Source: Eledone cirrhosa (taxonomy: Eukaryota). From it: 64,000 nt of DNA. The stretch lies in contig OZ024740.1 of the NCBI GenBank assembly GCA_964016885.1, forward strand, positions 384,028,001 to 384,092,000. The letters run 5' to 3'. Positions 9,030 to 57,795 of this stretch are shown here, piece after piece; the stretch's first letter is position 1; each line of letters begins with the position of its first letter. The notes under the pieces were generated by a model. The model saw nothing but the letters and a program-made list of their open reading frames with translations, searched no databases and had not been told where the DNA came from. Both the position numbers and the translations under genes were made by a program.

Positions 9030-10480
9030 ATACATATAATTCATTTTGAAGTCTGACTCTTCTTATAGATTGTCCAGGTGTGGCACTCCATATTAGATTG
9101 TAATCATCATGATATGAACTCCTTTAGTACTTATTAATAGACTCCACTCTAATTTGTAGATAAGAAACATAATTTAATTTATATATGAGATGGGGTTTAT
9201 GTATTGCTCGATGGCCAGACTAGTGTCTTTGTATGAGAGAATTGATCTCCGGACCACCCTGGAGATATTCAAAATTGCCAAGGATTCAGACATACAATAC
9301 CCAGAGCTTACCGGGAGTCATATATAATAGTAGGACCATGCCAGGTCCTGCGGGTGGAATACACTTACAAAGAACATTGATTTGGAGGTCTGACTCTTCT
9401 TATAGAATGTTCAGATATGATACCCCTTAATAGAAGGTAATCATCCTGATATATACACCTTTAGTACTTCTTAATAGACAACACTGTAACCTATAGATAA
9501 GTAACATAATCTAGAAATTAGTTATAACATCATATGATAGGCACTTATTTGAAGCACCATTAATTTAATTTAGGATAATAAATTTAACTAAGAAAACCAG
9601 CTAGTCTATGTGGTCTATATATTGCGTCTCATGGATTATGTGAGTGGTGGTGTGCGCGAAGACAGTGGTACTGTTTTGTCTACGCTATAATATGTTTTAT
9701 AATATGTTTGATATTTTTGATATTTTGTTGTTTCTATACATTCGGGATTGTATATCATACAGGTGTATGCGAAAAAATGATTTAACAATTCAGCCCACAT
9801 AATACTATCGATTGCCTGCTTCAACTCCCTGACCCTGCAAGTAACAATCTGCCGCACTCTAATACTGTATAAATAAGACACGCGTGCATGCTACACGTGA
9901 GATTGTTTCATACACTGACTACTCTAAACTTTCCTCTTGCGTTATCTTCATAAACTGCCAGTTTCATTTTTATTTTTATTTTTATTTTTATTTTTATTTT
10001 TATTTTTATTTTTATTTTTTTTTTTTTTTTTTTATTTTTTTTTTTTTTTATTTTTTTTTTTTTTTTTTTATCTTTATTTTTATTTTTATTCTTATTTTTA
10101 TTTTTATTTTTATTTTTATTTTTATTTTTATTTTTATTTTTATTTTTATTTTTATTTTTATTTTTATTTTTATTTTTATTTTTATTTTTATTTTTATTTT
10201 TATTTTTATTTTTATTTTTATTTTTATTTTTATTTTTATTTTTATTTTTATTTTTATCCTTTAACCTTTATATGTAAATTGCCATGCTATATCATTTTGA
10301 TGGATGTCATCCCACTGTGGGTCAATATATGCATATGTTTTTATATGTCTCTTGTGTTGAAAAGGAGGTCAAGTATGTTATAGATCACTAAATAGTTGCT
10401 CCGAAGAATCCAAACCTCGGTCTGGAGGAAACAATTGTAAGCAAATAAATGATTTAAACTGAACTTTGATTATTGTAATC
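9030..10480 (+). mobile_element. Probable PLE 3' UTR remnant with diverged internal duplication, (TTTTTA)n tract and terminal HHR
   Basis: 9045-9175 resembles 9381-9510; (TTTTTA)n at 9968-10257; HHR at 10396-10444. Confidence 0.55.
10396..10444 (+). ncRNA. Type I hammerhead, U4C core variant
   Basis: TTGCT-CCGAAGA-aTCCAaACC tc GGTcTGGAg-GAAACAATTGTA-AGCAA; palindromic stem III. Confidence 0.7.
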
Positions 10481-10619
10481 TATCTATCTATCTATATATA
10501 TATATATATATATATATATATATATATATATATATATATATATATATACACATATACATACCTACACACATACACACAGACATATATATATATATATATA
10601 TATATATATACATATTACA

Positions 10620-13600
10620 TATTATCCATATTACAATGGAAAAACAATACTTGGGAATTTCTTTAAAGAATATACAAATACCTTCTTAGGATGAATTCTT
10701 ACTTCTTATGATACAAAAAAAAAACAACCAATTCATCAAAAGGGTCAGATGGAGGGCCTACCACTTTGATAAAAAAACAAAATGTACTGATAAGAAATAT
10801 TTATATGATTTCACTACTTATAAGAACCCACCACACAACTCCTTGCTTGAAAACTTCGAGAAAGACCTTTTTAACTTAATCAAACACCTCAAATTTAAGA
10901 AATATAAATCTAATTTTCAAAAGGATCTTGATTTTACCCTACTGGATCTAAAAAAATCTAACAAAATCCATGTCTACTCTGACAAAACTGGAAATATGTG
11001 CCACATGGATAAAAACTCAGGAAAAATTATTTAAAAAAATAAATAATGCGGCACTTACTAATATCAACAACAAAACACAACATAGTAAATAAATTCAATA
11101 TTGAAGATAGAACTGAACCTTTGGCACTGAAAAAGCCACACTTTAACCTGAAAGATCACAAATCTAATTTTAAATCTAATCCTTCTATAAGACTTATATG
11201 CCCTTCCGAATCTGACATTGGCATTATTAGTAAACAAATTTTAGATAGTGTCATTCCACAATTAAGAAAACATGTTAATTTACTACTCTGGAAAAATACA
11301 TTTCAGGTAATTAACAGGCTTACTAATATTAGAAAATATCATCTGCTTCATTTCTACAATTCGATATAGATGCTTATTACCCTCTATATCACCCATACTC
11401 CTGAACAAAGCCTTGATATTTGCCAAAAATAGATCAAACTTAACTATGGATGACATTAATATTATCACGCACGCTAGACAAACACTACTGGAATTTCAGA
11501 AGGAATACTGGACCAGAAATACATATAGTAATCTATTCGACATTACTATGGGCTCTAGTGATTCTTCCCAAATTACTGATCTTGTGGGCCTCTTTCTTCT
11601 ATTTAACATAAATGCTTCTTTTCTCCCACCTTAAAGGTGGTTTATATCGTGATGACTGTCTTCTTCTTTCCACTAACCTTAGCCTATCAGAAATTGAAAA
11701 AAATAATAAAACTTATTAGAACTTTCCTCAAAGACTATAATAGTCTCAATATTACATTTGAAAACACCAGTAAAGTAGTTAATTTCCTTGATATAACTTT
11801 AGACTTATCTACGGGTATCTACCAACCTTACCATAAACCTAACCAAAACTTACATTACATACACTCACAATCCAATCATCCTAGACCTATCCTTAAAAAC
11901 CTAGCATATAATATCTCACTTAGAATTTCTAACCTTTCATCTAACCAGGATGTGTTCGATAAAAATGCGACCTTTTATAACGATGCTTTAGCTAGAAGCG
12001 GCCACAAAAACAAATTAGTCTATATACCTTGTACCAATAATACTACAAACATACAACCCAATATTACCAACAAACACCAAATGAAAAATACACACCTAAA
12101 TGTCACTCACAATATACCCAAAAATACCAACTTAAAACTTAATTTCTCTACCTCTTCTCACATACAATATAATAACTTTCAAAAAACCATTCATCCTAAT
12201 ACTCCAATATATGTTAATAACATTACTAACAAAATTCCTAATAATCAGACTAAAACACCTAAATCAGTTAATCTAACTAAACATATGTATAATAAATTCA
12301 CTAATACTAACTCTCTTAGTAAACATTAGGATACATCGTATAAAAATAAAAAAAACAGCATCGAAACCGTAAGAGACGAGTTACTTGGTATAATGCTCCA
12401 TTTAATCTACAAATTAAACATAATATCCCTAAAAAATGTGTCACTATCCTAGAGAAAAACTTCCCCCCAAACTGTAAATACCATCAAATTTCAAATAGAT
12501 CAACGGTCAATTTTCCTAATCCACTTCCAAAAATATACAACAAAATATAAGTGCCTACAATGCATATAAATGTAAAAAAAAAATATGAATATACCACCAA
12601 CACATCAAACTAACCATAATAAACCGCAGCAAACCACTATCTCCTTCACATACAACAAGTCGAGTAAATTCCACACCTAATTTGACTAACTCCCCTGAAA
12701 TAATATTCACGAATGGTTGTAACTGTAGAAACAAAGCAAATTGCCCATTAAAAGGAAATTGCCTTATTAATAACATAGTATAAACATGTAAAATTAGCAC
12801 TTGACTCAACTTATTCATATATAGGAGCTACTTCTAAACAATTTAAAGTAAGATTTAATATCCACAAATACAGTTTTAAAAATACCGCATTAGCTAATAC
12901 AACATCCTTGGCTGAAATAATTAATAATTATAGAAAAAGTATATCGATTATAACCTGACCTGGAGTGTGCTCAAAAGGGCCACCCCTTATCAAAATAACA
13001 GATATGAGTGTAGATTATGTTCCCAGGAACATTTTGAAATAATGAAATCTAAGGATATCCTATTAGATAAACGATAGGAATTAATTATATCGTGCAATCA
13101 TAGAATTAGAAGAACTTTCAAATATTATAAACCTAATTAATATACACCTTACACTTATATTTTACAAATTATTATAATTAGTTTTATTAATTTAGTTAAC
13201 CTATAATTAGTATTTTACTACTGAGGATTCATAATTTTATTTCCCTTTTACAGCTATCTTTTCCAAAATTAATACCTATAAGTATACATATAAACTATTT
13301 TAATTTCCTGTTATGAATCTAAATTCTTTGTAGTCTATATAAGTTTGTTATTTCTCACTAATACATTTATCCCCCCAAATTTGTTTTCCTTCGTTTTTAA
13401 CAACATTCTTTAATAACATCTAACTCTTAATTATCACATCTATATGAATTAATATAAATTTATCCCTATAAGTATACCTATCAATTAAATTAATTTAATT
13501 TCTTTTTATAGATGTAAATTCCTTATCTTTTAAATAAGATTGGTATATCTCACTAACACATTTATCCTAAAATTTTATTCTCCTTCGATTTTAAAATTAG

Positions 13601-55896: not shown

Positions 55897-57727
55897 ATTC
55901 GTAAATATGCGTGTGCTGTATCTAATGTTTGTTTGTGTGCAGCGCTCACGCAAACTATAGAAAAGATCACCCATTATGTTGAGTTGAATTTATATTGGAG
56001 GACTGTCAGATTTATTCCAGCATTCTTCAGTTTATCATAAGCACGCAGTGTATTTTCATGTAAAAATTCAGACAATATTTTAAATGAAATTTAAAGATTC
56101 CGGAAGGTGTTATATCTGCAGTTTACTTGCAAGATCGCTTCTCATATGTTAAGTCTGTTCACACATTTAGATTTGATGCATACTGTGTTATTAACAATTG
56201 TCAGAAAGTCAACAACCTCCAAATCCTGCAATATAGGTTAATTAACTACCTTAAAAGCATAACAGCGAACTGAGAATAGTTAGCAGGTGTATTTCCGACG
56301 CTTCCAAACTATACGTTAGAATTATTAGAATACTTGTTCAATGTATTTGGAATACTGCAGTCCCGAGATGCTGATATATTGAAAACACGTCAACGTGATG
56401 TGGTACTCAATTCGATAACGTATTGAGTTATTATTCTCTATATAAGTCTATCCCATTCTTATATTCATTAATGGTTTAAGTTGGATTTCAGTCATGCTGA
56501 AGCAGCTGTATGAAGGTGGTTGATTTCAGGAAAGAATAATGCTCTAGAAACCAGGGTTATAATTATCGCGAGGAGGTCACTGTTATAATTCGACAAATTC
56601 TGCTGAGGTAAACAGCCCCCATAAAGTGAGGCGGTAGAACTAAGGTGTTCGATCTTTTGGGATTGTATGTCCTTGACTCATTCAATAATGCGCATTACTT
56701 CATTTCCACAGCCCTACATTTAACTAATCTGAAGGCTTAATACTATGATACATGAATAGAATGGCCGCATATTGCATACAATTAGTAAATAATGCATGGG
56801 AATATTTCGGCATCTCGTCATAAACAAAAGGATTTGCAAGAACTAAGCAATTACCAATAATTTCACCAACCCGACGTCATTCTTTAAAGTCTAAATACGG
56901 ATGCAGTGGAACTCAATAACATTTCAGAATTCCATCAATTTCTTTCTTCCAACATGTCCACTCATTGAGACCAAACAACATGGATTGATTGTCTAAATCA
57001 TCTAGAGAACTAACCTCAAATACCCCCCCCCCCCCCTCCGCCATGTAGAATACATTCCACCACCATTCAGATTCACATCCACGAATATAAACACATATCA
57101 ACATAGAGCAAACACACTCCAAATATATATATATATACACACACAGACACAGACAGACACACACACACACACAGACATATATATATATATATATATATAT
57201 ATATATATATATATATATATATATATATATATATATATATATATATATACATATATATATATATTTATTTATATGCGTGTACATACGCAACCGTTTATGT
57301 TTCATTAAATCTAGTTCTAAATTGGTTATGAATCATTCCGTCATAAATAAGAATTTAATTAGTATACACGTGCCGAATGGTACACACAAAATGCTACATG
57401 TAATGACAGCTGCTTCAAAATTTGCAGCTTCTTTACCCATATTGATATCGAATAATATTGGCTCAGTTGGCTATATTAGCAAATGCATTAAGATGGTCAA
57501 ATGGTTCGGTAATTTAAAGGAAGTTATCAATTGATCCAACATCCAAATGATATGTGGAAACTTAAAAAATATGCCAAACCTTTCTAAAATTGATGATGTA
57601 AACTTTACTTTGGTTATGTGCATTCCAAAGATTCAGGTTTGTTTCTTAATTAAACATTAGACCCTTCCCATACAAACAATATATATATATATATATATAA
57701 TGTATAATAAACAATACAATATAATTA

Positions 57728-57795
57728 CCTCATTACCAGAGGTTTCCCGAATAAGACGAATACAAGAAACGTCCTCATTCGTTCGTCGGACAAGG
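57728..57795 (-). ncRNA. Type I hammerhead, U4C core
   Basis: CCTTGT-CCGACGA-aCGAATGAGGACG..CGTCTTATTCGg-GAAACC tct GGT-A-ATGAGG. Confidence 0.75.

What the first reader, a model, noticed from the sequence alone, without database searches (positions are those of the whole stretch)
10396..57795. Recurrent U4C hammerhead core (CCGANGA) in unrelated families
Seen: CCGAAGA at 10401 and 13870, CCGACGA at 57783-57789 (-), and CCGATGT at 8833. Each has different stems but an intact GAAA and GUA site. The same substitution at one normally conserved position in four families is hard to explain by random decay, and it creates a CpG rather than removing one. Inference: a natural, possibly attenuated, variant that lets some RNA stay uncleaved.
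Basis: partly seen in the sequence, partly recalled or inferred. Interest (0 to 1): 0.75.

Follow-up and report, generated by a model that had tools for sequence, protein, structure and literature searches.

The report
Transposon ribozymes with inherited core change
Several abundant Penelope-type jumping-gene families in this animal genome carry a hammerhead (self-cutting RNA) motif with C instead of the textbook U at one core position in thousands of copies; the motif likely still cuts, but slowly, and since U and C versions of one family both spread, cutting speed likely matters little to these elements.

Summary
All four sites are type I hammerhead motifs in the terminal repeats of Hydra-clade Penelope-like retroelements, with GAAA and GUA in place; two have a stem II region of about 95 nt. 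C4 is the inherited family state at three of four sites. At 10401 it is 1096 of 1116 exact copies; at 8833, 97 of the first 100 of 511; at 57789, 66 of the first 100 of 792, beside a real U4 subfamily of similar age. At 13870 it is a rare mutation (8 of 1602). Across the wider 10401 group (5175 matches) C4 persists while N7, the stem II junction and loops vary and the other core bases stay. Genome-wide C4 is a minority (6 of 97 hammerheads in 800 kb). The families are not all unrelated: 10401 and 8833 group together by protein. Best reading: a tolerated, probably slower, dimer- or protein-assisted ribozyme, not a selected attenuator; cleavage is untested. U4C is known from one viroid; I found it in no Penelope table that I could read. 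This scan noted it before in this genome and in others.

The parts
8830..8948 (+). Family C type I hammerhead: stem I 8830-8832/8946-8948, core 8833-8839 (C4 at 8834; private A9>T at 8839, so this copy is likely dead), 94-nt stem II region with inner hairpin, GAAA 8934, palindromic stem III, predicted cut after 8945
8805..8981 (+). 5'-truncated terminal-repeat fragment of the family C Hydra-clade element
   Evidence: 93-94% to a long copy; DKT, CxCx5C, GIY-YIG motifs in L277
10396..10444 (+). Family A minimal type I hammerhead: stem I 10396-10400/10440-10444, core 10401-10407 (C4 at 10402), A.G junction pair, stem II hairpin 10409-10426 (private T>C at 10422), GAAA 10428, palindromic stem III, predicted cut after 10439
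8999..10487 (+). 3' UTR and terminal repeat of a 5'-truncated family A element, ending in (TA)n
   Evidence: (blastn against tandem full-length copy L107)
13861..13992 (+). Family D type I hammerhead with 95-nt stem II region; C4 at 13871 is a rare mutation in a U4 family; GAAA 13972, predicted cut after 13983
10621..14049 (+). Decayed near-full-length family D Hydra-clade element (RT and GIY-YIG pieces, 3' terminal repeat)
57725..57798 (-). Family B type I hammerhead: 9-bp stem I, core 57789-57783 (C4 at 57788), A.G junction pair, stem II, GAAA 57746, predicted cut after 57734
57692..58034 (-). 5'-truncated terminal-repeat fragment of the family B Hydra-clade element
   Evidence: 96% to long copy L120

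Best explanation
These are hammerhead motifs at the ends of Hydra-clade Penelope-like retroelements, in which C4 is inherited from the source copies of three families and likely leaves a slower but still working ribozyme that the element tolerates. Shown: the motifs, their place in terminal repeats, the family-wide C4, intact remaining core bases, and amplification of both U4 and C4 versions. Inferred mechanism: in tandem or paired transcripts two motifs pair through the palindromic stem III, perhaps helped by the element's protein, and cut after GUA/GUC. C4 would lose the uridine-turn contact to the A6-N7 phosphate and lower the rate. Copying probably uses mostly uncut RNA, so selection would keep the fold and catalytic bases but be nearly blind to a moderate loss of rate, and U and C can replace each other in source copies.
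For: C4 in 1096 of 1116 (A), 97 of the first 100 of 511 (C) and 66 of the first 100 of 792 (B, hand count). With the core left free, 99 family rows among the first 100 of 5175 A-group matches have C4 in 92. The eight other free core positions show only 13 scattered changes in 792 cells, while N7, 10.1, 11.1 and loop II differ between subfamilies (hand count); G8-changed copies do not form a clade. Stem pairs hold in 95% of cells, with two-sided changes at one stem II and one stem III pair. In family B position 4 follows subfamily: 10 changes on the tree against 28.8 shuffled. The U4 subfamily diverges 1.5%, the mainly C4 ones 1.6-3.2%. Predicted dimers pair the stem III palindromes in A, C and D. 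A natural U4C viroid variant has much lower activity in vitro but stays infectious (PMC3088659). In a lizard Penelope-like element the hammerhead needs protein, and catalytic mutants do not impair insertion in vitro (PMC11167929).
Against: No cleavage or expression data: no RNA run was listed. In pairwise mutagenesis of another hammerhead, all single and double mutants of the CUGA turn except the C3/G8 swap had low activity, so U4C may be near-dead there (PMC9901934). Long persistence of C4 in the A group, although C4 forms a CpG, fits selection as well as drift. The covariation control is weak: the columns were partly fixed by the search pattern and the sequences are related. Predicted monomer and dimer folds of family B pair the core in alternative helices.
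Confidence: 0.58

Rival explanations
1. Selected attenuation: C4 is favoured because slower cutting leaves more full-length RNA for translation or reverse transcription.
For: C4 is on all deep branches of the A group, whose proteins have diverged to about 70-85% identity (the 70% row is my inferred link at L284). It probably arose at least twice (A+C, B). Unprocessed RNA is the main insertion substrate in vitro. A weaker viroid ribozyme tied to infectivity is cited as a precedent (PMC11014351).
Against: 90 of 97 hammerheads in 800 kb keep U4. A U4 subfamily of family B amplified as recently as its C4 sisters. Family D, with 1602 copies, is U4.
Confidence: 0.15
2. The C4 motifs no longer cut; the fold is kept as a protein-binding or priming signal for the element's RNP.
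For: Low activity of CUGA-turn mutants. Naiad elements spread without canonical hammerheads (PMC8557442). Reads at the cut site were not found in lizard RNA-seq.
Against: G8, G12, the 15.1-16.1 pair and a non-G N17 are all kept across diverged C4 subfamilies, and N17 varies only among A, C and U. No amplified subfamily with a changed G8 or G12 was seen.
Confidence: 0.16
3. C4 is compensated by context (non-canonical 10.1-11.1 pair, N7, dimer or protein), so these ribozymes cut as fast as their U4 relatives.
For: Tolerance of core changes differs between hammerheads (PMC3884650). A and B both have an A.G junction pair.
Against: C4 occurs with N7 = A, C, G or U and with many junction pairs, including canonical G-C in family C; U4 and C4 share one scaffold in family B. 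No covarying partner was found.
Confidence: 0.09
4. The C4 bases are private decay or assembly errors.
For: True for 13870 (8 C of 1602).
Against: Family counts for A, B and C. Contigs of four public runs (at most two samples, possibly the source) list no other letter at 10402 at the 5% threshold.
Confidence: 0.02

Closest known systems
Hammerheads of Hydra-clade Penelope-like elements (Craig et al. 2021, PMC8557442, File S2)
   Same: Type I motif near the 3' end, short palindromic stem III, extra or unpaired bases flanking stem II, ORF with RWK/RWR, DKT and CxCx5C motifs, (TA)n targets.
   Different: All 34 rows of File S2 (26 Hydra-clade) begin ctga; none has C4. The core-only search there used cuganga. 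The Hydra rows have short loops, unlike the 94-95 nt stem II regions of C and D.
Minimal hammerheads of metazoan PLEs (Cervera and de la Pena 2014, PMC4209133)
   Same: Terminal-repeat location, dimer design, family-level core variant (U3-A8, also present in this window), low activity in vitro.
   Different: Its descriptor fixes cuganga and loop 2 of 3-10 nt, so C4 and long-arm motifs could not be found. It reports a conserved G10.1-C11.1 pair, which A, B and D lack.
Natural U4C viroid hammerhead (Ambros and Flores 1998, seen only as cited in Perreault et al. 2011, PMC3088659)
   Same: Same substitution; low activity in vitro, enough in vivo.
   Different: One variant of an RNA replicon whose hammerheads have loop-loop contacts (recalled); here C4 is the source state of thousands of genomic copies in several retroelement lineages.
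CYGANGA descriptors for hammerheads in deep-sea RNA viromes (PMC13481778)
   Same: C is accepted at position 4 and seen in the logos.
   Different: Descriptor hits in viral contigs, with no family-level fixation or retroelement link in the passages read.

Membership tests
Type I hammerhead ribozyme | Three-way junction with stems I, II, III closing in stem I | tested here: met
   stem I is only 3 bp in family C, and stem III is short and predicted to form in dimers
Type I hammerhead ribozyme | Core C3, G5, A6, G8, A9, G12, A13, A14, A15.1-U16.1, H17 | tested here: met
   family level; the window copy at 8833 fails at A9
Type I hammerhead ribozyme | U4 of the uridine turn | tested here: not met
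   C4 in families A, C and most of B; met in family D
Type I hammerhead ribozyme | G10.1-C11.1 pair | tested here: not met
   A.G in A and B, C.A in D, G-C in C; published Hydra rows also often have extra bases at this junction
Type I hammerhead ribozyme | Site-specific self-cleavage | not testable with these tools
   no assay; no RNA holder listed
Rfam hammerhead models | Score at gathering threshold | tested here: not met
   0 matches in the window, also for its U4 motifs
Hydra-clade Penelope-like element | RT followed by C-terminal GIY-YIG endonuclease | tested here: met
   (motifs read directly); Pfam gave only a weak RVT_1 hit for 1 of 4 proteins
Hydra-clade Penelope-like element | RWK-type motif, DKT, CxCx5C linker | tested here: met
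   A, B and D; family C copy L277 shows DKT and CxCx5C, but no RWK match
Hydra-clade Penelope-like element | Partial tandem or inverted terminal repeats, (TA)n targets | tested here: met
   three copies at period about 4697, inverted pairs, (TA)n flanks
Hydra-clade Penelope-like element | Placement inside the Hydra clade with reference sequences | not tested
   no published reference proteins were in my tree

The most novel reading that the evidence does not exclude
C4 hammerheads are a widespread class that standard searches cannot see, selected in Penelope-like elements as slowed or protein-gated ribozymes that balance cut against uncut RNA. Family B, with U4 and C4 subfamilies on an otherwise identical ribozyme, is a ready natural experiment on why these elements keep a ribozyme at all.
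Probability: 0.2. Interest if true: 0.72.

Novelty: new variant of a known kind. Interest (0 to 1): 0.46.

Why it matters
What hammerheads do for Penelope-like elements is open: they are nearly universal in these elements, yet slow in vitro and not needed for insertion in one assay. A core change fixed in thousands of recently amplified copies, and a family with both states, bounds how much catalytic rate the elements need and gives matched pairs for a direct test. In practice, descriptors with a fixed CUGANGA and a short loop II miss whole families: more than 6,000 motifs in this genome from the A group, B and C alone.

Tried and rejected
CpG decay as the source of U4 in family B: rejected, since other CpG sites there change in about 4-10% of 110 copies, G5 in 3 of 110, and U4 tracks diagnostic sites. 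A covarying partner for C4 (N7 or the junction pair): none found. Amplified lineages with a dead core (G8C, G8A): the copies fetched are scattered on the tree. My first descriptors missed the long-arm sites or were too strict. Linking hammerheads to proteins by proximity gave false links (rows G06, G09, G13, G24, G02_L153, G01_L073 and G10_L284), which I discount as family links; the earlier endonuclease-only tree lacked reliable rows for A and B. A maximum-likelihood tree of family B timed out and was replaced by FastTree, which does not fix the direction U-to-C or C-to-U. Expression: no RNA holder listed. Monomer folding z-scores were weak for three of four sites. No per-mutant U4C value was in the eLife supplements held. 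Not held: Lunse et al. 2017, Ambros and Flores 1998, Martick and Scott 2006, Scott et al. 2013. Lunse et al. and its supplements, and file 1 of the Cervera supplements (not searched), may already list C4 variants.
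Full report
Observation. The window comes from a 3.0-Gb AT-rich genome (G000) and is dense in microsatellites and in RT and GIY-YIG fragments of Penelope-like elements. The four heptamers are at the stated places. Each is followed by GAAAC, a short palindrome, GTA and the 3' half of stem I. At 8833 and 13870 the stem II region is 94 and 95 nt long and folds into long hairpins. A structural descriptor finds 11 hammerheads in the window, 3 with C4; 8833 is missed because of a private A9>T. Thirty shuffled windows gave about 0.03-0.07 hits each. Rfam scores none of them.

Family state of position 4. Family A (10401): 1116 exact matches with position 4 free; 20 are not C (10 T, 7 A, 3 G), so 1096 of 1116 are C. 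Family C (8833): 511 matches; the first 100 by position are 97 C, 2 T, 1 G. Family B (57789): 792 matches; the first 100 are 66 C, 32 T, 2 G (hand count). Family D (13870): 1602 matches, of which 10 are not T (8 C, 1 G, 1 A). Exact patterns miss older, more diverged copies, so these counts favour young copies.

Depth of C4 in the A group. A degenerate pattern for sister subfamilies gave 2266 matches, with 92 C, 6 T, 1 G and 1 A in the first 100 (hand count). A pattern leaving the core free gave 5175 matches. Of the first 100 rows I dropped one as a chance match. In the other 99, position 4 is C 92, T 6, A 1. C3, G5, A6, G8, A9, G12, A13 and A14 show 2, 1, 1, 6, 1, 1, 0 and 1 changes, while N7 takes all four bases and 10.1, 11.1 and loop II differ by subfamily (hand count). 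A tree of 88 of 123 held A-group copies (35 near-identical family A rows dropped) has C4 on all deep branches; T4 copies are scattered, with at most one small lineage, and G8-changed copies form no clade. On 30 distinct sequences 95% of stem cells pair, with two-sided changes at two pairs; several columns were fixed by the search pattern, so this is modest support.

Family B holds both states. Among 110 held copies (a sample I enriched for T4), the subfamily marked by upstream diagnostic sites is U4 in 25 of 27. Two others are C4 in 19 of 20 and 10 of 15, and a fourth is mixed (25 C, 12 T); 11 short copies were unassigned. Median divergence from subfamily majority is 1.5% for the U4 subfamily and 1.6%, 3.2% and 1.8% for the others. 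Other CpG sites change in only about 4-10% of copies. On a tree of 89 of the 110 copies with positions 4 and 7 masked, position 4 needs 10 changes against 28.8 for shuffled labels. U4 and C4 source copies of one element were thus both active at similar times; the direction of change is not resolved.

Genome background. In 80 evenly spaced 10-kb stretches the descriptor found 97 hammerheads: 90 U4, 6 C4, 1 G4; three shuffles gave 4 hits in all. All held DNA grouped into 53 families; 10 contain a C4 copy in that listing and 8 have C as the commonest base. Allowing one change at any core position, other changes appear almost only as single copies or local pairs. The window, with 4 C4 among 12 motifs, is richer than average.

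The elements. [quoted passage not shown] They occur as tandems and inverted pairs in (TA)n. Using only links confirmed by several copies, A and C proteins are 39-46% identical and form a clade with support 100; B is 32-38% identical to both; D is 39-46% to A. Deeper nodes are unresolved (25-59), and the alignment was scaffolded on partial tblastn hits. C4 thus needs at least two origins, or three if A and C changed separately.

Mechanism. Shown: inheritance of C4, intact remaining core, amplification of both states. Predicted: two copies pair through the palindromic stem III in A, C and D, while B prefers another pairing in the energy model. From papers: U4 contacts the phosphate between A6 and N7 (PMC3088659, section 8); that C lacks the N3 donor is my own knowledge. 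A natural viroid U4C variant is much slower in vitro yet infectious. CUGA-turn mutants are low in a mutagenesis screen (PMC9901934, passages). Minimal PLE hammerheads are slow even with U4 (PMC4209133, parts 1-2 of 4). In one PLE the hammerhead is protein-assisted and not needed for insertion in vitro (PMC11167929, passages). I infer a slowed, tolerated ribozyme (0.58), ahead of a non-cutting structural signal (0.16), selected attenuation (0.15) and full compensation (0.09).

What is known. U4C with 'hammerhead' occurs in one paper of the library. Motif spellings gave one relevant paper, which uses CYGANGA descriptors for viromes (passages). Searches showed no report of C4 in Penelope hammerheads in their listings. 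All 34 rows of Craig File S2 have U4 (supplement part 2), and the published PLE descriptors fix cuganga. I also read passages of PMC6765202, PMC7229834, PMC11014351, PMC3376415, PMC3884650 and bioRxiv 2026.07.22.740005. Lunse et al. 2017 and Ambros and Flores 1998 were seen only as reference entries, so prior report of C4 in PLEs is not excluded. After my reading was set, the scan's own notes showed the same variant on other pieces of this genome and in other genomes; these are unreviewed and are not counted as support.

Verdict. The feature is real and family-level at three of four sites; it is a new variant of a known kind, with function untested. Interest 0.46.

Noticed in passing
window 34748 (-): Hammerhead with the U3-A8 core swap; its family has 12 copies in held DNA, and four other small U3-A8 families were seen.
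   Followed up: partly
window 6583 (-), 8833, 13870, 44241 (-): Four hammerheads with stem II regions of 85-95 nt, longer than published PLE descriptors allow.
   Followed up: partly
L286 (G000:C1:154825500-154831500): Five tandem units of about 1 kb, each with an A-type C4 hammerhead and (TA)n, too short for the ORF; resembles a non-autonomous, retrozyme-like array.
   Followed up: no
window 13861-13992 and L068: The window copy has changes on both sides of stem I that give a perfect 9-bp helix beside its C4; L068 shares only the 5' changes.
   Followed up: partly
L115 (G000:C5:84729000-84738999): All three hammerheads of one family A insertion carry A4, so one A4 template was copied within a single insertion.
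   Followed up: no
window 18820 (-)/20551 (+) and 58192 (-)/60905 (+): Inverted pairs of U4 hammerheads flanking single insertions.
   Followed up: no
window 26919 (-), 27386 (-), 27416 (+): Three related CUGAUGA motifs beside a PLE ORF, with an atypical or altered 3' half that did not pass the descriptor.
   Followed up: no
window 22708-25845 (+): Long ORFs of a LINE-type element with apurinic-endonuclease-like and RT-like sequence, read by eye.
   Followed up: no
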